DNA of 64,000 nucleotides from an uncultured Chitinophaga sp. (GTDB taxonomy: Bacteria > Bacteroidota > Bacteroidia > 2-12-FULL-35-15). The notes under the pieces are model-generated. The model did no database searches and was not told the origin of the DNA. It saw only the letters and a program-made list of their open reading frames with translations. Position numbers and translations under genes: made by a program. Positions 1 through 30,266 of the stretch are shown here, in pieces; the stretch's first letter is position 1; the number at the start of each line of letters is the position of its first letter. Location of the stretch: the NCBI GenBank assembly GCA_964549315.1, contig CAZJUY010000007.1, forward strand, positions 37,567 to 101,566, given 5' to 3'.

Positions 1-1352
1 ATGTCTCCATCATTTGCGTAAGAGCATGCTGTTTTTATTGCTTCGTGTCTATCAGCAATAGAAATTGTTTTTTTAAAATTTACCGCATCCACACCTGCTT
101 GCATTTCTTTTAATATTGCGTTTGGGTCTTCGCTTCTTGGATTGTCTGAAGTAAGAATTACTTTTGTACTTAAGTCACATGCAATTTTTGCCATTATTGG
201 TCTTTTTGCTGCATCTCTATCTCCCCCACAACCAACTACTGTTATTACTTTTTCATTTCCAGTACGTATGTCATTTATTGTTTTTAAAACATTTTGTAAA
301 GCATCTGGAGTGTGTGCATAATCTACAATTCCTATTACACCATTATTATTTCTGATGTATTGAAATCTTCCTTCAACTGATCCAAGTGTACTGATAGTAG
401 TTAATACATTGGTTTTATCTTCTTTTAATAAAATGGCGGTAGCATATACAGCTAATAAGTTATAAGCATTAAAACTTCCAATTAGTTTGCTCCACAAATC
501 GTTGTTATCAATATTTAAGTGTAAACCGCTGAATTGATTTTCTACTACTTTGCATTTAAAATCAGCCATAGAACGAAGCGAGTAAGTGCGTTTTAGTGCT
601 TTGGTATTTTGCAGCATCACTTCTCCATTTACATCATCTTTATTTGTTAAAGCAAATGCATTTGCACTTAAGCTATCAAAGAATTTCTTTTTTGCTTTTA
701 GATATTCATCAAATGTTTTATGATAATCTAAATGATCGTGAGTGATATTAGTAAATACAGCACCAGCGAACTGGATACCATTAATTCTATTTTGTACAAC
801 GGCATGAGAACTCACTTCCATAAAACAATGAGTGCAACCCTTTTCAATCATTTGATGCAACAAAGCGTTTAGTTGAATTGCATCAGGGGTAGTATGCGTT
901 GCAGCTATTACATCATTATTAATTTGGTTTTTTACAGTTGATAATAGCCCAGTTTTGTAGCCCAGTTTTTTAAATAAGTTAAAAAGCAAAGTAACTGTTG
1001 TTGTTTTTCCATTTGTTCCGGTAACACCAACTAGTTTAATTTTTTCTGAAGGATTATCATAAAAATTAGCAGCAATAATTCCTAAAGCAATACTTGAATC
1101 GTTAACTTTTATATATGCAATTTTTTCATTTAAAGTTTCAGGTATTTCATCACACACAATAGCAATTGCGCCTTTTGAAATGGTGTCATTTATATATTTG
1201 TGCCCATCACTTTGAGTTCCTTTAATAGCAATAAACAAACTGTCTTTTTCAATTTTTCTGGAATCAAAACTTAATGAGGTGATTGCAATGTTGGTAGAAC
1301 CAATTACTTCTACAATTCCCGCTTTATATAATATGTCTTTTAATAATTTCAT
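1..1352 (-). CDS. murE: UDP-N-acetylmuramoyl-L-alanyl-D-glutamate--2,6-diaminopimelate ligase, 3' end runs off the window
   Basis: Not in the ORF track; translated by hand from ATG at 1352 (MKLLKDILYKAG...), which overlaps the ftsI stop (TAATG). Motifs GVTGTNGKTT, MEVSSH, DYAHTPD, GCGGDRD and DNPR (meso-DAP specificity). Confidence 0.96.
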   Translation of the reverse strand, partial: MKLLKDILYKAGIVEVIGSTNIAITSLSFDSRKIEKDSLFIAIKGTQSDGHKYINDTISKGAIAIVCDEIPETLNEKIAYIKVNDSSIALGIIAANFYDNPSEKIKLVGVTGTNGKTTTVTLLFNLFKKLGYKTGLLSTVKNQINNDVIAATHTTPDAIQLNALLHQMIEKGCTHCFMEVSSHAVVQNRINGIQFAGAVFTNITHDHLDYHKTFDEYLKAKKKFFDSLSANAFALTNKDDVNGEVMLQNTKALKRTYSLRSMADFKCKVVENQFSGLHLNIDNNDLWSKLIGSFNAYNLLAVYATAILLKEDKTNVLTTISTLGSVEGRFQYIRNNNGVIGIVDYAHTPDALQNVLKTINDIRTGNEKVITVVGCGGDRDAAKRPIMAKIACDLSTKVILTSDNPRSEDPNAILKEMQAGVDAVNFKKTISIADRHEAIKTACSYANDGD

Positions 1353-3472
1353 TAAATCAATTCAAGTATTATTGATGTTCCTTTTTTAAATGGCTCTCCT
1401 GGTGCTATGGATTGTTTTGCAACACTTCCACTGCCAATTATTTTTACATGGATGCCATTGTTTTCTAATAAATAAAAAGCATCTCTAGCAGTCATTCCAA
1501 CCAGGTTTGGAACAATTCCTTTTTTAAAATTTTCTTGCAAATTTTTTGCTGTTAGTTTTATAGAAGTAGAATCAACAACTGAAGCACTCACGTATTCTGA
1601 ATTTGAATCAGAAGGGCTTACTTTTACTTTTAAAGCATTTAAAACGTATGCTACTTCATCTGAAGAACCAGTTTTTGTAACAGGAATTTTTGCAGCAAAC
1701 ATTTCTTCCGAAGAATTTATTTCTTTATGAATTTCCAAACTGGTTGAGTAAACTTTATCTGCTACATCTTTAAATACTGGACCTGCTACAGCACCACCAT
1801 AGTAAGAATCTCCTGTTGGTGCACTAATAACAACTATACAAGAATATTTTGGGTTGTCGGCAGGGAAATAACCTACAAAAGAAGCTTGGTAAGTCATTTT
1901 TCCATTCACCATTCCCATTTGTGCAGTTCCTGTTTTTCCTGCAATTTGATAATCAGCTGCACGTAAGCTTTTTGCTGTGCCATTCAGTACAACACCCTCC
2001 ATCATTGTTTTTGCTTTTTCAATTGTTGCTTCAGAACATATTGAGGGATTGATTACTTCTGTTTCAAACACTTTTGTTGTTTTTCCTCTTTTGCGAACCT
2101 CTTTCACAAAAATGGGTTTTACCATTTTTCCGTTGTTTGCAACAGCATTGTAGAAAGCCAAAATTTGTAATGGAGTTATTCTTGACTCATAGCCATAGCT
2201 AATCCAAGGCAAAGAAATTTTTGACCAAGTTTTATCACTTGTATTTTTTAGGTATGGATCTGCTTCTCCTGGAATGCTTATTCCCAAAGCATTTCCAAGC
2301 CCCATGTTGTGCAATCTATCAATATACTTTTGTGGATTTTTTGAATAATATTTTGTAATAATTTTTGTAACACCAACATTAGATGATTCTTCAAAAACTC
2401 GTTGAACATTTACTTTGCTTTCTTTTGGAGGATGGGAATCACGTACTTTAGAGCCATAATATTCGCATTCTCCATTTCCAATATCTACTACTTCGTTTAG
2501 TGAAACATTAAAATCTTCCATTGCAGCAATTAGAGAGGGAAGTTTAAATGTAGATCCAGGCACAGTTGCTACACCAACTGCATAATTTAAGTTTTCAAAA
2601 TAAATAGAAGTGTCTTTCTTATTACGTGTTAGATTCGCAATAGCCTTTACTTCACCTGTTTTTACTTCCATTAAAACCAAACATCCATGACTTGCACCAT
2701 GTTTTTTCAAACAATTCAGTAATGAATTTTCCGCTACATCTTGTACATTAATATCAATTGTTGATACGATGTCCGAACCATCTTGTGGCTCAATTTCATT
2801 ATCTGTTTCTATTGGTCTCCAAACACCTCCAGCAATTCTTTGCATAACTCGGTGTCCATTAACACCTTGCAGATAGTCATTATAGGCAACTTCTAATCCA
2901 TAGGATTTTCCTGTTCCATTTTCATTTAATTTTCCAATAGTACGTGCAGCTAAAAATTGAAATGGGCGTTCACGTTTGTTTGTTTGTAGATAAACAAATC
3001 CTCCTCTGTTTTTTCCTCTTCTTAAAAGAGGAAATTTTTTCATTTTTTGTAAATCTGGATATGAAACATTTTTTTGTAGGACTAACCATCTATCTCCTTC
3101 TGCTCTTGCTTTTCTGAGCATACGTTTATATTCTTTTGCAGTTTTGTCATTAAATAAATTAGACAAGCAAATAGCTAATGAGTCAACATGCTTCTCAAAT
3201 ATTTCATTTGTAATTGGTTCTGTGTTTACATCAATTCCTGTTTCATAATAGGGTAGAGAAGTTGCCAATAAGCTGCCATTTGCATCATAAATATTTCCTC
3301 TTACAGCTTCAATATCAAAAAATCGAGTTGAAAAGCTTTCTGCTTTTGCTCTCCATTCATCCCCTTCAGAAAATTGTATGATTGCGACTTTGGAAATAAT
3401 AGCGACACCAAGAAGGCATATAATAAAATATATGAGATATACACGCCACAGTATGTCTTTTTTAATTTCCAA
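1352..3472 (-). CDS. ftsI: Class B penicillin-binding protein (FtsI/PBP3) with C-terminal PASTA domain
   Basis: N-terminal TM helix; SxxK (GSTFK), SxN (SSN) and KTG (KTGT) motifs; PASTA-like tail VPNLVGMTARDA; position in dcw cluster; TTG start. Confidence 0.93.
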   Translation of the reverse strand: MEIKKDILWRVYLIYFIICLLGVAIISKVAIIQFSEGDEWRAKAESFSTRFFDIEAVRGNIYDANGSLLATSLPYYETGIDVNTEPITNEIFEKHVDSLAICLSNLFNDKTAKEYKRMLRKARAEGDRWLVLQKNVSYPDLQKMKKFPLLRRGKNRGGFVYLQTNKRERPFQFLAARTIGKLNENGTGKSYGLEVAYNDYLQGVNGHRVMQRIAGGVWRPIETDNEIEPQDGSDIVSTIDINVQDVAENSLLNCLKKHGASHGCLVLMEVKTGEVKAIANLTRNKKDTSIYFENLNYAVGVATVPGSTFKLPSLIAAMEDFNVSLNEVVDIGNGECEYYGSKVRDSHPPKESKVNVQRVFEESSNVGVTKIITKYYSKNPQKYIDRLHNMGLGNALGISIPGEADPYLKNTSDKTWSKISLPWISYGYESRITPLQILAFYNAVANNGKMVKPIFVKEVRKRGKTTKVFETEVINPSICSEATIEKAKTMMEGVVLNGTAKSLRAADYQIAGKTGTAQMGMVNGKMTYQASFVGYFPADNPKYSCIVVISAPTGDSYYGGAVAGPVFKDVADKVYSTSLEIHKEINSSEEMFAAKIPVTKTGSSDEVAYVLNALKVKVSPSDSNSEYVSASVVDSTSIKLTAKNLQENFKKGIVPNLVGMTARDAFYLLENNGIHVKIIGSGSVAKQSIAPGEPFKKGTSIILELI

Positions 3473-25868: not shown

Positions 25869-26861
25869 CTATTGAACAACATTAATTGATTGTCCAACTT
25901 TGAGCTTCACTCTGCCTGAACTCATGTTGTTCATCTGTTTTAAACGAGTAGTGGTAGTACCAAATCGTTTAGCAATTTCAAAAAGAGTATCACCCCTTTC
26001 TACTGTATAATATTTTGCGTTGCTTGGAAAAGCGGCTATACCCCATTTTGTCTTTTTTATTGTAAGTTCTTCGCAAAATAGTTTTTGATCTTTTAATGCA
26101 ACAATATACTTTGGATTAATTGGAACGCCTTTTAATCTGATTTCAAAATGCAAATGAGTTCCAGTTGAATGCCCTGTACTGCCACCTAATCCAATAAGTT
26201 GACCAGCGGATACAATGTCACCAGGTTTTACTTTTATTTTCCAGAGGTGAGCATAAACAGTTTCTAAGCCATTGTAATGTCTGATGATAACCACATTTCC
26301 AAAACCTCCAAAACGTTTTGCAATACGTACCATTCCACCAAACGCAGCGGATACCTTATCTCCTTTATTCAAATCAATATCAATTCCGTTGTGCTGTGTA
26401 CTATCTCTCCATCCAAAATAAGACGTTATTGGCCCATCAAAAGGATGGAAATAATCATCTTGTCCGTCTGCTTTTAGGTTAATCGTTAAAGAGCTGTCAC
26501 CCTTTAGTTTTAACATGTCTTTTTCTGGAAATAGATTATTTATTTCCCAACCTGCGTATATGTCGGCTGCAGGGAATTTGTTTTTGTCAAAATATTTTGA
26601 ATTTGATTTAATATGTGAAATTGCCAAATTGATTTCTGAAATTAAATCGCTAGGAATTGTATCCATTTCTAATAAAAAATCAACCAGGGTGTATAGCTGT
26701 TCTTTATTCATGTTTTGAATTAAGCTAGAAACGGGCGGTTTAGTGGATACGGTATCGTCAGGACCAGAAATAAAATTTCTTGCCTTTGATTGAAAAGTGC
26801 TGCAAATCAATAAAAGACTTGCGATAAATGTGTATGAAATATGTTTTTTCAATTCAAACAA
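25869..26861 (-). CDS. M23 family metallo-endopeptidase with C-terminal LysM domain
   Basis: Signal peptide; HNGID (HxxxD) and HLH (HxH) zinc motifs; LysM YTVERGDTLFEIAKRFG. Confidence 0.92.
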   Translation of the reverse strand: MFELKKHISYTFIASLLLICSTFQSKARNFISGPDDTVSTKPPVSSLIQNMNKEQLYTLVDFLLEMDTIPSDLISEINLAISHIKSNSKYFDKNKFPAADIYAGWEINNLFPEKDMLKLKGDSSLTINLKADGQDDYFHPFDGPITSYFGWRDSTQHNGIDIDLNKGDKVSAAFGGMVRIAKRFGGFGNVVIIRHYNGLETVYAHLWKIKVKPGDIVSAGQLIGLGGSTGHSTGTHLHFEIRLKGVPINPKYIVALKDQKLFCEELTIKKTKWGIAAFPSNAKYYTVERGDTLFEIAKRFGTTTTRLKQMNNMSSGRVKLKVGQSINVVQ

Positions 26862-26937: not shown

Positions 26938-29631
26938 TTATTTTTTAAGAAGCATTTTTTCTTTTTTATTTACACCAAACTCTAAAATACGATCAATAAA
27001 ATCGTATGGTTTGTAGCCATTGATGGCTGTTTGATGAAAGATACAAGTAGCGGGTGTCATACCTGGCAATGAATTTACTTCAATAAAAATTATTTCCACT
27101 TTTTCATCGTTGTTTATTCTTACAAAAGCATCAATACGGCAATATCCTTGAACATTTAGAGCTTTTGCTGCATTGCCCAATGTTTGTTTTACGATATCTG
27201 AAATTTTTTGTCGTTCTGCAGGGTCGGCAGAATAGCGAGCAGGTGTGATGTTTTGTCCTTGTCCTGCAAGGAATTTTTCTTCTAAGGATAAAACTTCTCC
27301 TTCGCTTAAGGCTTCAGATGCCTCAAATACTTCGTAAACAATATCTCCATTTTTATCATATTTTGTAAGCATTCCACCTGTAATTTCTAAAAAATGTTTT
27401 GCCTCTTTTCTGCTAATTAATTCTTCAACAAGTATTACATTTTTTTGTGGAAATTCTTCTTTATCTTTTATATGTAACAAATCTGCTGCTAATTGATTTA
27501 GCATTTCTTGTTTGCGGAAAATAAGTGTAGCAAAAGCATTAAACTCTTCGGGTGTTTTTATTTTTTTTACTGCAGAAGAACATCCATCGTCAACAGGCTT
27601 TGCTATAAAAGGATATTTTATTTTTTCTTTGATAGTTTTTAAAACGGAATCTTTATCAGAACTCCAATCTTTTTCGGCAACAAGTAAATGTTCTGCAACT
27701 AAAAAACCATTTTGTTTTAAAATTTCGTTTGTTCTGTATTTATCAATTGTAATTTGTGAACTATCTACACCACTTCCGTTATAAGGCAACCCTATTTTTT
27801 CTAAATTTGCTTGAACAGCACCGTCTTCGCCTGGCCTGCCATGCAGTGCAATAAATACAGCATCCACCGTTTTTGCTAATTCATCATAAGTAAACCGTTT
27901 TGGTTTTGCTAAATTATCTGCACTCACATATTTAGTTGTAATGGATGATGCTTCATCAATAATCTGTTTTACTAAATCATGAATTTTATAGTTTTCAATT
28001 TTTTCTTTTATATCATCTGCATTGTCCTTCAACAAAATATTGATTGGAATTTGATACATGATGTGTTCATCTGCATTGCCCGTTAAAAAAATGGGAATAG
28101 GTTCATATTTAGTAGAAGAAGCTAATTTTTCGTAAATATTTCTTCCGCTTTCAACAGAGATATGTCTTTCAGATGAGTAACCGCCAAGGATTACAGCAAC
28201 TTTGATTTTCTTAGTAGTTGATGATTTGTCCTGCTTTATTGATTCATCCAATTGATTTAATAATTTTTTAAATACAACTGCATATGAGTTAGCTTTTATT
28301 CGTTGTGCCAAAGAAGTACGAATAATATAGGTCAAAAATTGAGATGGATTCAATCCTATTTCTGCAGCTTGATGAAAGAAAAAAGAAGAAGGCATCATCC
28401 CAGAAGTAGTATTAGGATCATTCAAAAATATTTTTCCATCTGTAGAAAGGAAGCCATCAATACGAGCATACACATCAAAATTTAAAGCATAAAATAATCG
28501 TTCACATTCTTTTCTTATTGCTTGAATTTGCTCGTTAGGCAAATCAATTGGTGTAATTTTTCTTGATAAACCAGGCAAGTACTTTGAACGATAATCAAAC
28601 AATTCTTTTCCTTTTCTTATTTCAGTTGGAGGCAGAGCGATTGCTTTCCCATTTTCATCTTGAGCAACAATACATGAAAATTCTTTGCCATCAATAAATC
28701 CTTCAATTAACACAGTTGTTTCACCATCTATTGCTTCTAAAACGGCTCCTTCTTTTTCTGTTGTAAATAGTTTATCTAAAAAAGAAATTAAATCGGCAGG
28801 ATGATTTATGATTGTTGAATTGATTTTTACTGGTAACGAAATTCCTTCACGAATATCTGCAAGCACACGAACAAAATTATTTTTTTCTTCTGCTGATTTG
28901 TTTTTCCATTCTGTTGCATCTACCCATTTTGTGAAAAAAGCTTTCTCCACAGCTTCCATAAAAGAGAAATTATCATCTTTTGAAAGAATAGTTACACCAA
29001 TAGATGAACCTTGGTTAGCTGGTTTTATAACTAATGGAAATCCAATTTCTTTTTTTACTTTTTCAAAAACACCTTTGCAATTCCCAGTGATATAATCGTT
29101 TTTATCAATTGTAATAAATTTCGGACTATTGAATCCTGCACTCACCATCATTCTTTTTTGAATGCTTTTATCAATACCAATTGCAGAAGGCAAAACACCA
29201 GAGCCTGAATATGGGATTCCTAAAAATTCAAACAGACCTTGAATCTTCCCGTCTTCACCAAATGGACCATGTAAACACAAAAAAGCAAAATCAAAATAAG
29301 TTCTTAAATCATCTGCATTGATTTTTTTTCCAATTTTATTTATCATTTCAAGTTGATCTGAAGCGTCAAATTCTCCAATTTGCTCAGCATACACTTGAAA
29401 ATCGCCTTGTTTATTTGGTATAAATTCTACTGGAGGATAAAAATCACGAACACTGCCTTTGTAAATAAATTCCCAATTGAGTAAAACAAAATTTCCAAAA
29501 CTATCTACAAAAACAGGTACAGCATCAAAAAGTGATTTGTTTAAATTGTCATAAACAGTTCTTCCGCCAGCAAATGATATTTCTCGCTCCTTTGAAAATC
29601 CACCGAAAATGATTCCTATTTTTATTTTCAT
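26938..29631 (-). CDS. ddl: Tandem two-domain D-alanine--D-alanine ligase family protein (897 aa)
   Basis: Two full Ddl motif sets: GGFSKEREIS / GGYSSERHIS, LHGPFGEDG / LHGRPGEDG, KPANQGSS / KPVDDGCSS, RIDGF / RIDAF, DPNTTSGM / EVNSLPGM. Confidence 0.88.
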   Translation of the reverse strand: MKIKIGIIFGGFSKEREISFAGGRTVYDNLNKSLFDAVPVFVDSFGNFVLLNWEFIYKGSVRDFYPPVEFIPNKQGDFQVYAEQIGEFDASDQLEMINKIGKKINADDLRTYFDFAFLCLHGPFGEDGKIQGLFEFLGIPYSGSGVLPSAIGIDKSIQKRMMVSAGFNSPKFITIDKNDYITGNCKGVFEKVKKEIGFPLVIKPANQGSSIGVTILSKDDNFSFMEAVEKAFFTKWVDATEWKNKSAEEKNNFVRVLADIREGISLPVKINSTIINHPADLISFLDKLFTTEKEGAVLEAIDGETTVLIEGFIDGKEFSCIVAQDENGKAIALPPTEIRKGKELFDYRSKYLPGLSRKITPIDLPNEQIQAIRKECERLFYALNFDVYARIDGFLSTDGKIFLNDPNTTSGMMPSSFFFHQAAEIGLNPSQFLTYIIRTSLAQRIKANSYAVVFKKLLNQLDESIKQDKSSTTKKIKVAVILGGYSSERHISVESGRNIYEKLASSTKYEPIPIFLTGNADEHIMYQIPINILLKDNADDIKEKIENYKIHDLVKQIIDEASSITTKYVSADNLAKPKRFTYDELAKTVDAVFIALHGRPGEDGAVQANLEKIGLPYNGSGVDSSQITIDKYRTNEILKQNGFLVAEHLLVAEKDWSSDKDSVLKTIKEKIKYPFIAKPVDDGCSSAVKKIKTPEEFNAFATLIFRKQEMLNQLAADLLHIKDKEEFPQKNVILVEELISRKEAKHFLEITGGMLTKYDKNGDIVYEVFEASEALSEGEVLSLEEKFLAGQGQNITPARYSADPAERQKISDIVKQTLGNAAKALNVQGYCRIDAFVRINNDEKVEIIFIEVNSLPGMTPATCIFHQTAINGYKPYDFIDRILEFGVNKKEKMLLKK

Positions 29632-29681: not shown

Positions 29682-30266
29682 CTAACTTTTGTTAATTGCA
29701 TTTAAGTATTCAACAAGTTTATTAACTGCAATAGCACGATGGGATATTTTGTTTTTTTCTGACAAGTCCATTTCTGCAAATGTTTGATTATGGCCATTCG
29801 GAACAAAAATAGGATCGTATCCAAAACCTTGCGTCCCTCTTTTTTCTTCCAAAATAGTCCCATTTACTACACCTTCAAATAGTTTTTCATTACCATTTAT
29901 CACAAGAGAAATAACCGTTTTAAAACGAGCTTTTCTGTTTGTAATTCCTTTTAATTCCGTTAAAATTTTATCCATATTAGCATTTGCATCTTTTGCCTCT
30001 CCCGCATATCTTGCCGACAATGCCCCAGGTTTACCACCTAAAGCTTCAACTTCTAAGCCCGTATCGTCAGCAAAACAATTGTAGTTGTAATTGTTTTGTA
30101 CAAAAAAAGCTTTTTGAGATGCGTTTCCTTCAATTGTAGCTTGTGTTTCTGGCACTTCTTCCAAACAGTTTATGTCTATTAAGCTAAGTATTTCAATGCT
30201 TTTAGGAATAAGCGATTGGATTTCTTTTGCTTTATTTTGATTGGCTGTGGCAAATACGAGTTTCAT
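29682..30266 (-). CDS. rdgB: Non-canonical purine NTP pyrophosphatase (RdgB/HAM1)
   Basis: [38 protein letters not shown]. Confidence 0.95.

What the first reader, a model, noticed from the sequence alone, without database searches (positions are those of the whole stretch)
26938..29631. Tandem Ddl: two ligase domains in one chain
Ddl is normally a ~300-370 aa homodimer. Here residues ~1-450 and ~475-897 each carry the full ATP-grasp Ddl motif set and have clearly diverged, giving a covalent pseudo-heterodimer whose two active sites can specialise. It is outside the visible dcw genes and directly upstream of an M23/LysM endopeptidase, suggesting a peptidoglycan stem-peptide module.
Basis: partly seen in the sequence, partly recalled or inferred. 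Interest (0 to 1): 0.65.

Follow-up and report, generated by a model that had tools for sequence, protein, structure and literature searches.

The report
Two-unit D-Ala-D-Ala ligase, sole copy

Summary
Observation confirmed. Window 26938-29631 (-) is one 897-aa ORF with two complete Ddl units (25% identical) joined by an unconserved helical linker. It is not an artefact: the same fused ORF occurs in at least 584 species genomes, including closed ones. It is the only Ddl in a 99.98%-complete genome.

The two units differ in a fixed way. Unit 1 keeps the canonical Glu15/Ser150/Tyr216 triad, with an invariant E270D change. Unit 2 keeps every ATP, Mg and catalytic residue but always has Cys150, Phe216, Thr281 and a remodelled omega-loop. 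This signature holds down to about 30% identity, in forms of 705-1285 aa, and in lineages where the gene later split in two. A tree shows one ancient duplication-fusion.

The M23/LysM neighbour is a local rearrangement (near ddl in 1 of 68 loci). The real recurrent partner is a TM+PASTA gene: adjacent in 26 of 71 loci, fused in some lineages, and on another contig here.

A fused two-DDL gene is already described for Arabidopsis and moss, so the architecture is not new. What unit 2 makes is unknown. My best guess is an active ligase with altered second-substrate specificity.

The parts
26938..29631 (-). Tandem ddl ORF, 897 aa, including the stop codon
28297..29631 (-). Unit 1 (residues 1-445). 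Canonical-type Ddl with E15, S209 (=S150), K350/Y351 (=K215/Y216), R390, D392, D405 (=E270, always Asp) and N407. Inserts relative to DdlB at residues 41-99 and 221-303.
28558..28611 (-). Omega-loop of unit 1 (residues 341-358, LFDYRSKY). Low pLDDT, as expected for a mobile lid.
28417..28419 (-). Codon for D405, where Asp replaces the Mg-ligand Glu270. Invariant in 77 of 77 homologs and in nearly all distant representatives.
28213..28296 (-). Linker (residues 446-473). Predicted helical; 29% mean identity to the query and no invariant column.
26941..28212 (-). Unit 2 (residues 474-897). Variant Ddl with E488, H490, K631, K678, C684 (=S150), A687, K786/F787 (=K215/Y216), R832, D834, E851, N853, T862 (=S281) and C863. 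Inserts at residues 515-575 and 708-729.
27580..27582 (-). Codon for C684, at the position of Ser150 of the substrate triad. Invariant Cys.
27247..27294 (-). Omega-loop of unit 2 (residues 780-795, VLSLEEKF). All three loop tyrosines of DdlB are replaced; F787 sits at the Tyr216 position.
29682..30266 (-). Upstream Ham1/RdgB-type NTP pyrophosphatase gene. It is the only window neighbour that recurs next to the tandem ddl (30 of 65 loci). No functional link is claimed.
25869..26861 (-). Downstream M23 peptidase + LysM gene. The adjacency is specific to this lineage, and the gene is not part of the system.

Best explanation
The ORF encodes the cell's only D-alanine-D-alanine ligase, built as a covalent pair of two non-equivalent Ddl units. 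The pair arose from one ancient duplication-fusion. Unit 1 has the full canonical substrate and catalytic set, apart from a conservative Glu270-to-Asp change at one Mg ligand. It most likely makes the D-Ala-D-Ala that MurF adds to UDP-MurNAc-tripeptide. Unit 2 keeps every residue needed for ATP binding, Mg binding and acyl-phosphate chemistry, so it is most likely an active ligase too. However, its substrate lid and pocket are rebuilt (Ser150 to Cys, Tyr216 to Phe, Ser281 to Thr, and the omega-loop FDY..KY replaced by LSL..KF). I infer that it handles the second (nucleophile) substrate differently: a relaxed or different D-Ala-D-X specificity, possibly including a D-hydroxy acid. In most relatives the enzyme is genetically coupled to, or fused with, a single-pass membrane protein carrying periplasmic PASTA repeats, which suggests membrane tethering or feedback from the wall. 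In this genome that partner gene has been moved to another contig. Shown: the architecture, sole-copy status, the signatures and their conservation, the single origin, and the PASTA linkage. Inferred: catalytic activity of each unit, the division of labour, and any PASTA-mediated regulation.
For: The ORF and both complete units are established. PF01820 hits only this ORF in a 99.98%-complete genome, and TIGR01205 gives no other Ddl-grade hit. Every tandem-bearing relative also has only the two in-frame units. MurF is present. The signature is fixed in 77 of 77 homologs at 60-85% identity and in about 70 of 81 full-length representatives down to about 30% identity, across the 705-, 800-, 900- and 1250-aa classes. 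The two units are equally constrained: pairwise identity 67.3% vs 68.1%, invariant columns 131/445 vs 137/416. There is a natural contrast: some PASTA-fused paralogs have lost the catalytic residues in both units, which shows what relaxed selection looks like in this fold. In the tree, the unit 1 clade has support 95, the unit 2 clade 100, and unit 1 plus unit 2 together 97, excluding 37 single-unit Bacteroidota Ddl and E. coli DdlA/B; the two sub-trees mirror each other. Stand-alone unit-1-type and unit-2-type genes nest inside the tandem clades and keep their signatures. The AF2 model has pTM 0.85. The PASTA gene is adjacent in 26 of 71 loci and fused behind a TM helix in P0123, P0126 and P0127. 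In lactic acid bacteria the Tyr/Phe position decides dipeptide vs depsipeptide synthesis (PMC5996685). A tandem Ddl-MurF fusion exists (P0261), tying the family to stem-peptide synthesis.
Against: There are no biochemical data for any bacterial member. The Phe216 analogy comes from distantly related lactic-acid-bacterial enzymes, and unit 2 is sister to unit 1 rather than to those enzymes. Its omega-loop also differs from theirs, so the analogy may not transfer. DdlB Y216F still makes D-Ala-D-Ala (my recollection of the Walsh-lab mutant work; not read here). No VanH/VanX-type genes flank the gene. A VanX-family peptidase and two MurF-type genes exist in the genome, but they also occur in single-Ddl relatives or controls, so they say nothing. 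The Glu270-to-Asp change could instead mean that unit 1 is the slowed or regulatory unit. The pseudo-dimer geometry was not measured.
Confidence: 0.5

Rival explanations
1. Both units make D-Ala-D-Ala. The fixed differences tune kinetics or regulation rather than product: for example one high-affinity and one high-capacity site, different product inhibition, or different sensitivity to D-cycloserine-like natural inhibitors. The fusion only secures 1:1 stoichiometry of an obligate pair.
For: Both units keep all catalytic residues. The protein is the only Ddl. Knock-out of the fused DDL in moss gives giant chloroplasts because D-alanine can no longer be dimerised (as summarised in PMC9954125), so the fused type does supply D-Ala-D-Ala in vivo. 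Moss precursors are ordinary pentapeptides (PMC9434261). No D-lactate or D-serine pathway genes lie at the locus.
Against: Kinetic tuning alone would not obviously hold Cys150, Phe216, Thr281 and a rebuilt omega-loop invariant across several phyla. In other Ddl enzymes the Tyr/Phe position does change the product (PMC5996685).
Confidence: 0.3
2. Unit 2 (or unit 1) is not a ligase in vivo. It would be a nucleotide- or substrate-binding regulatory or scaffolding module that stabilises the active partner or docks it to the PASTA membrane protein.
For: Ddl works as a dimer with a recurrent interface (PMC6899670), so a partner unit could be kept for structure alone. Related PASTA-fused paralogs with dead catalytic sites exist (P0174, P0177, P0183, P0185, P0232), which shows the fold can be kept without catalysis. 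The triad is broken in unit 2, and the Mg ligand is shortened in unit 1.
Against: Where catalysis is dispensable, the catalytic residues decay quickly, as in those same paralogs. Here K97, K144, E180, E187, K215, R255, D257, E/D270, N272 and G276 are invariant in both units. After gene fission, each unit persists as a separate gene with its site intact.
Confidence: 0.12
3. The fusion is an assembly or gene-calling artefact that joins two adjacent ddl genes.
For: The genome is a draft in 89 contigs. Split two-gene versions exist elsewhere.
Against: The frame is uninterrupted here and in 76 full-length homologs from independent assemblies, including single-contig genomes. The linker is translated in frame and modelled as helices with pLDDT above 80.
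Confidence: 0.01

Closest known systems
Plant 'fused' DDL (Arabidopsis At-DDL, Physcomitrium PpDDL BAE45860, rice OsDDL BAF22630)
   Same: It is one gene encoding two putative complete DDL enzymes in tandem (PMC9954125, main text and Fig. S3 legend). It is needed for D-Ala dimerisation for plastid peptidoglycan in moss. Moss Ddl is reported as closest to Fibrobacteres-Chlorobi-Bacteroidetes homologs (PMC9434261).
   Different: The plant proteins carry transit peptides and work in plastids. I could not retrieve a plant sequence, so whether they share the unit 1 / unit 2 signatures and fall inside this clade is untested here. Earlier scan notes say they do, but those notes are unverified. The papers I could read report no dissection of the two modules.
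Canonical single-unit D-Ala-D-Ala ligases (E. coli DdlB 2DLN/1IOV; DdlA-type such as Salmonella 3I12)
   Same: Same fold and domain set for each unit (TM about 0.8) and the same catalytic residues. Unit 1 has the same Glu/Ser/Tyr triad.
   Different: Here there are two units in one chain instead of a homodimer. Each unit is 90-140 aa longer through inserts. Unit 1 has Asp for Glu270. Unit 2 has Cys150/Phe216/Thr281 and a different omega-loop. Each unit alone scores below the NCBIfam cut-offs.
Phe-type depsipeptide ligases of lactic acid bacteria (Leuconostoc LmDdl2, PDB 1EHI; Lactobacillus Ddl)
   Same: Phe occupies the Tyr216 position, which in those enzymes switches the product from D-Ala-D-Ala to D-Ala-D-lactate (PMC5996685).
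   Different: Unit 2 is sister to unit 1 in the tree that was built, which held no lactic-acid-bacterial ligases. It also has Cys for Ser150 and lacks the aromatic FDY part of the loop. The hosts are Gram-negative, and no D-lactate genes lie at the locus.
MurC-Ddl bifunctional enzyme of Chlamydia (NF011171)
   Same: A Ddl unit fused to another peptidoglycan-precursor ligase in one chain. The tandem family also has a tandem Ddl-MurF variant (P0261).
   Different: That fusion joins different enzymes. This one joins two paralogous Ddl units. The query scores 194 bits against a cut-off of 1015 for that model.

Membership tests
D-alanine--D-alanine ligase (EC 6.3.2.4; Pfam PF01820 + PF07478) | Ddl N-terminal and C-terminal (ATP-grasp) domains | tested here: met
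   Both domains are present twice. The whole protein passes the subfamily cut-offs (391.5 bits vs 243 for NF002378). Each unit alone falls below the cut-offs (234 and 166 bits).
D-alanine--D-alanine ligase (EC 6.3.2.4; Pfam PF01820 + PF07478) | ATP, Mg and catalytic residues K97, K144, E180, E187, K215, R255, D257, E270, N272 (DdlB numbering) | tested here: met
   All are present in unit 2. All are present in unit 1 except E270, which is an invariant Asp.
D-alanine--D-alanine ligase (EC 6.3.2.4; Pfam PF01820 + PF07478) | Substrate triad Glu15-Ser150-Tyr216 | tested here: inconclusive
   Unit 1 meets it (E15/S209/Y351). Unit 2 does not (E488/C684/F787). Both states are invariant in 77 of 77 homologs.
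D-alanine--D-alanine ligase (EC 6.3.2.4; Pfam PF01820 + PF07478) | ATP-dependent synthesis of D-Ala-D-Ala | not testable with these tools
   Inferred from sole-copy status in a near-complete genome that has MurF.
Fused two-module DDL (plant type) | Two complete Ddl enzymes encoded in one reading frame | tested here: met
   The plant architecture is taken from PMC9954125.
Fused two-module DDL (plant type) | Common descent with the plant genes, and the same unit-specific signatures | not tested
The literature says only that moss Ddl is closest to FCB-group homologs.
D-Ala-D-lactate (depsipeptide) ligases, applied to unit 2 | Non-Tyr residue (Phe or His) at the Tyr216 position | tested here: met
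   F787 is invariant.
D-Ala-D-lactate (depsipeptide) ligases, applied to unit 2 | Rest of the omega-loop as in Ddl and LmDdl2 (aromatic FDY...K motif); accompanying VanH/VanX-type genes | tested here: not met
   The loop reads VLSLEEKF. The neighbours are Ham1 and M23/LysM genes. Only the DdlB part of this loop comparison was tested here; the LmDdl2 loop motif is recalled from memory. The lone M15 peptidase elsewhere in the genome is not informative.
Tandem ddl + PASTA gene pair | A TM+PASTA-repeat gene directly downstream of, or fused to, the tandem ddl | tested here: not met
   The pair is adjacent in 26 of 71 related loci. In this genome the PASTA gene is on contig C3, followed by the same T9SS-tail protein and RluD that follow it in relatives.

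The most novel reading that the evidence does not exclude
Unit 2 defines an unrecognised, ancient class of Ddl-like ligase, marked by Cys150, Phe216, Thr281 and the LS[LI]xEKF lid, with its own product: a D-Ala-D-X dipeptide or depsipeptide. The tandem enzyme would then be a dual-output machine. In Bacteroidota, its output would be tuned directly by a periplasmic PASTA sensor tethered to it, giving a kinase-free feedback from wall status to precursor supply.
Probability: 0.25. Interest if true: 0.8.

Novelty: new member of a known kind. Interest (0 to 1): 0.45.

Why it matters
Ddl is an essential, long-studied antibiotic target (D-cycloserine), and textbooks treat it as a homodimer of identical sites. 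A very large set of bacteria, and by the literature also plant plastids, instead use a fused pair with two fixed, different sites. These bacteria include many uncultured freshwater and soil Bacteroidia, Patescibacteria-labelled MAGs and some actinomycetes. If the second site has its own chemistry, the ends of peptidoglycan precursors in these groups may differ from what is assumed. The puzzling phenotypes of Arabidopsis ddl insertion lines, in which the 3' half is still transcribed, would then need re-reading. The recurrent PASTA link offers a testable route by which wall status could act on precursor synthesis. For this particular window, the gene is simply a typical member of the family.

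Tried and rejected
1. M23/LysM as a functional partner: rejected. tblastn of the window's neighbours against 80 related loci finds it near ddl once in 68 loci.

2. MurF copy number as a correlate of the two Ddl units: rejected. Two MurF-type genes (about 440 aa and about 830 aa) occur in tandem-Ddl and single-Ddl genomes alike.

3. A VanX-type M15 peptidase as a sign of D-Ala-D-Lac metabolism: uninformative. There is one copy, and the family also occurs in control genomes.

4. Stand-alone unit-1-type and unit-2-type genes as pre-fusion ancestors: rejected. They nest inside the ~900-aa tandem clades, so they are secondary fissions.

5. P0254's N-terminal extension as an algal transit peptide, as a route to plant DDL: wrong. 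Its relatives are Dactylosporangium, Pseudofrankia and other actinomycetes.

6. Getting a plant DDL sequence from paper supplements: the sequence figure is an image, and Hirano 2016 and Machida 2006 are not held.

7. Measuring the intrachain interface: model coordinates are not exposed, and Foldseek compares single chains only.

8. PASTA next to single-unit ddl genes: tblastn found none downstream in 10 loci. However, only 3-4 kb on one side was examined, and at BLAST sensitivity.

9. Literature searches for a bacterial tandem Ddl or a Ddl-PASTA link found nothing.
Full report
**The object.** The window holds one uninterrupted ORF at 26938..29631 on the minus strand: ATG start, 897 aa. Pfam places a Ddl N-terminal domain and a Ddl C-terminal ATP-grasp domain in each half. 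The whole protein passes NCBIfam's Ddl subfamily cut-offs (391.5 bits vs 243). Each half scanned alone matches the same models end to end but falls below the cut-offs (234 and 166 bits). This reflects divergence and 20-80-aa inserts. The halves are only 25% identical to each other. I place unit 1 at residues 1-445, a linker at 446-473 and unit 2 at 474-897.

**Not an artefact, and the only Ddl.** The genome is 99.98% complete. The Ddl-specific N-terminal domain occurs only twice in it, both times inside this ORF. The full-length Ddl model finds nothing else of Ddl grade; the other hits are weak matches (23-50 bits, no Ddl N-terminal domain; not individually identified) in frames of other sizes. 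MurF is present. The same fused ORF is found in more than 4,700 proteins of about 900 aa and in at least 584 species-level genomes, all of them uncultured Bacteroidia MAGs. One is the closed genome of 'Ca. Pollutiaquabacter aromativorans' at 61% identity. Every genome of the same genus has two N-domains in one ~900-aa frame and no other. Seven other families of the class do the same, while nine have an ordinary single Ddl of 330-370 aa. In an even sample of 250 high-quality Bacteroidota genomes the tandem form is rare: G192, G204 and G252, the last two being single-contig genomes. Where it occurs, it again replaces the single gene.

**Two different active sites, frozen.** I aligned 77 full-length homologs (60-85% identical to the query) with E. 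coli DdlB taken from the K-12 record.
- Unit 1 has E15, S150, K215, Y216, R255, D257, N272 and S281 unchanged. Glu270 is always Asp (the motif reads N-D-P-N-T).
- Unit 2 has K97, K144, K215, R255, D257, E270 and N272 unchanged. It always has Cys for Ser150, Phe for Tyr216, His for Glu17, Ala for Gly153, Thr for Ser281 and Cys for Leu282.
- A refined alignment shows that E180 and E187 (adenine and ribose contacts) are present in both units.
- The whole omega-loop of unit 2 is rebuilt. DdlB reads FYDYEAKY and unit 1 reads LFDYRSKY, but unit 2 reads VLSLEEKF.
- The two units are equally constrained: mean pairwise identity 67.3% vs 68.1%, and invariant columns 131/445 vs 137/416. The linker has no invariant column.

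**The family is much wider than this clade.** A search of 1.84 billion representatives gave 798 hits at E≤1e-30. The full-length hits fall into size classes:
- about 870-930 aa (41-59% identical);
- compact, about 790-830 aa (32-36%);
- about 705-754 aa;
- about 1,200-1,285 aa with a C-terminal PASTA domain;
- a 1,262-aa tandem Ddl-MurF fusion;
- about 900-aa forms with an N-terminal HTH domain.

In about 70 of 81 full-length representatives the key residues read E[EG]HKKSGKYRDDNSF in unit 1 and E[HQE]HKKC[AG]KFRDENT[CV] in unit 2. The exceptions are instructive. Several PASTA-fused ~1,200-aa proteins have lost the catalytic residues in both units; one of them NCBI calls 'PASTA domain-containing protein' of Haliscomenobacter. 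This is what decay looks like in this fold, and it contrasts with the intact sites of the query. The compact class has more than 3,000 members. They are labelled Patescibacteria, Legionellales and other taxa, and are often called 'hypothetical protein'. The class also includes cultured Dactylosporangium and Pseudofrankia.

**Origin.** I built a maximum-likelihood tree of 103 sequences. It contained the units of 32 tandem proteins from all size classes, 37 single-unit Ddl from across Bacteroidota, and E. coli DdlA and DdlB. Unit 1 forms one clade (SH-aLRT 95), unit 2 forms one clade (100), and the two together form a clade (97) that excludes every single-unit enzyme sampled. The two sub-trees have the same internal order of classes. 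This indicates one duplication-fusion followed by co-divergence.

Complete stand-alone genes of unit-2 type exist (P0223, 402 aa, among unrelated genes), as do genes of unit-1 type (P0229, 423 aa, just upstream of ftsZ; also P0217, P0224 and P0227). They nest inside the ~900-aa tandem clades with support of 95-98, so they are later fissions. Each keeps its own signature. This argues that each unit is needed in its own right.

Caveats: the tree used the quick search, and single-unit Ddl from outside Bacteroidota are represented only by E. coli.

**Structure.** AlphaFold2 on the 77-sequence alignment gave mean pLDDT 83.5 and pTM 0.85. The low-confidence stretches are residues 16-19 and the two omega-loops (341-358 and 782-795). 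The linker is modelled as two helices. A pTM this high for a two-unit chain implies a defined mutual arrangement. I could not access the coordinates, so I cannot say that it matches the recurrent Ddl dimer described in PMC6899670. Foldseek finds only single-unit Ddl chains (TM about 0.8 per unit, at most 0.34 for the whole query), so no tandem Ddl has been solved.

**Context.** The window begins with dcw genes: murE, ftsI with a PASTA domain, rsmH and mraZ. The tandem ddl lies about 22 kb away from them. Its downstream neighbour is indeed an M23+LysM protein, but that adjacency appears in only 1 of 68 related loci. The upstream Ham1/RdgB gene recurs in 30 of 65 loci.

The recurrent downstream gene in relatives encodes a single-pass membrane protein with three PASTA repeats. 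It lies on the same strand, 2-35 nt after the stop codon, in 26 of 71 loci. In P0123, P0126 and P0127 it is fused in frame, behind an ~80-aa low-complexity linker and one TM helix. In this genome the orthologous PASTA gene sits on contig C3. It is followed by the same T9SS-tail protein and RluD that follow it in relatives. A rearrangement therefore separated ddl from PASTA and brought the M23/LysM gene alongside. Ten single-unit ddl loci showed no PASTA gene downstream by tblastn, which is a limited test.

**What is known.** Searches for a bacterial tandem Ddl or a Ddl-PASTA link found nothing. A lead from earlier scan notes took me to the plant literature. [quoted passage not shown]' The same paper draws the layout for the rice protein too (PMC9954125). 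Loss of the moss gene gives giant chloroplasts because D-alanine is no longer dimerised (same source). Moss Ddl is said to be closest to homologs from the Fibrobacteres-Chlorobi-Bacteroidetes group (PMC9434261). So the fused architecture is published, and its likely bacterial kin are this family. I could not fetch a plant sequence, so shared descent and shared signatures remain untested here. None of the papers I could read dissects the two modules.

**Mechanism.** In lactic acid bacteria, Tyr vs Phe at this position decides dipeptide vs depsipeptide synthesis (PMC5996685). On that analogy, and given the rebuilt lid, I think unit 2 is an active ligase that treats the second substrate differently, while unit 1 supplies D-Ala-D-Ala. 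The analogy is weak: unit 2 arose independently, its loop differs from the lactic-acid-bacterial loop, and no D-lactate genes accompany it. The main rival is that both sites make D-Ala-D-Ala with different kinetics or regulation. A pure scaffold role is unlikely given the intact catalytic sets. The MurF copy number and M15 peptidase checks did not discriminate between these.

**Verdict.** The M23/LysM module idea is wrong. The gene is a typical member of a huge, annotated family whose architecture is already known from plants. What remains open, and worth an experiment, is the chemistry of the Cys/Phe unit and the meaning of the PASTA coupling.

Noticed in passing
Proteins P0164, P0170, P0174, P0177, P0183, P0185, P0232, P0269 (not in the window): These proteins of about 1,200 aa have two Ddl-like units plus a TM helix and PASTA repeats, but the catalytic residues have decayed in both units. 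One is NCBI's 'PASTA domain-containing protein' of Haliscomenobacter (MBK7477711.1). They look like pseudoenzyme paralogs that kept the PASTA link.
   Followed up: partly
Proteins P0261, P0284, P0285, P0287, P0288 (about 1,260-1,307 aa); P0300, P0303, P0308 and others (about 900 aa): The compact tandem class has variants fused to a MurF-type Mur ligase at the C-terminus, and variants with an N-terminal XRE/HigA-type HTH domain.
   Followed up: partly
Proteins P0445, P0447, P0453, P0455, P0484, P0502: Cultured actinomycetes (Dactylosporangium spp., Pseudofrankia sp.) encode the compact ~800-aa tandem form, mostly annotated as 'hypothetical protein'. They would be convenient culturable sources for biochemistry.
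   Followed up: no
L158 4001-5209 and L161 4001-5272: Secondary gene fissions. A stand-alone unit-2-type gene (402 aa) sits among unrelated genes, and a stand-alone unit-1-type gene (423 aa) sits directly upstream of ftsZ. Whether both occur in the same genome is unknown.
   Followed up: partly
G000 C11:14311-15579 (837-aa frame) and C38:4722-5981: The genome has two MurF-type genes, one inside an ~830-aa frame that is presumably a fusion with another enzyme. The same pair occurs in nearly all Bacteroidia sampled, whatever their Ddl type. The fused partner was not identified.
   Followed up: partly
G000 C3 (L145 4905-5723, 5710-7590, 7597-8727): This genome's TM + three-PASTA protein is followed, with a short overlap, by a 626-aa protein with a T9SS C-terminal sorting domain and then by RluD. 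The same string follows the tandem ddl in many relatives.
   Followed up: partly
window 1352-3472 (-): The dcw-cluster FtsI-type transpeptidase carries a C-terminal PASTA domain, so the genome has two PASTA-bearing envelope proteins.
   Followed up: no
G137 and G141: Two complete Bacteroidia genomes show only two weak Ddl N-domain hits (E about 1e-8) and no strong one. This suggests a highly diverged or degenerate Ddl arrangement there.
   Followed up: no
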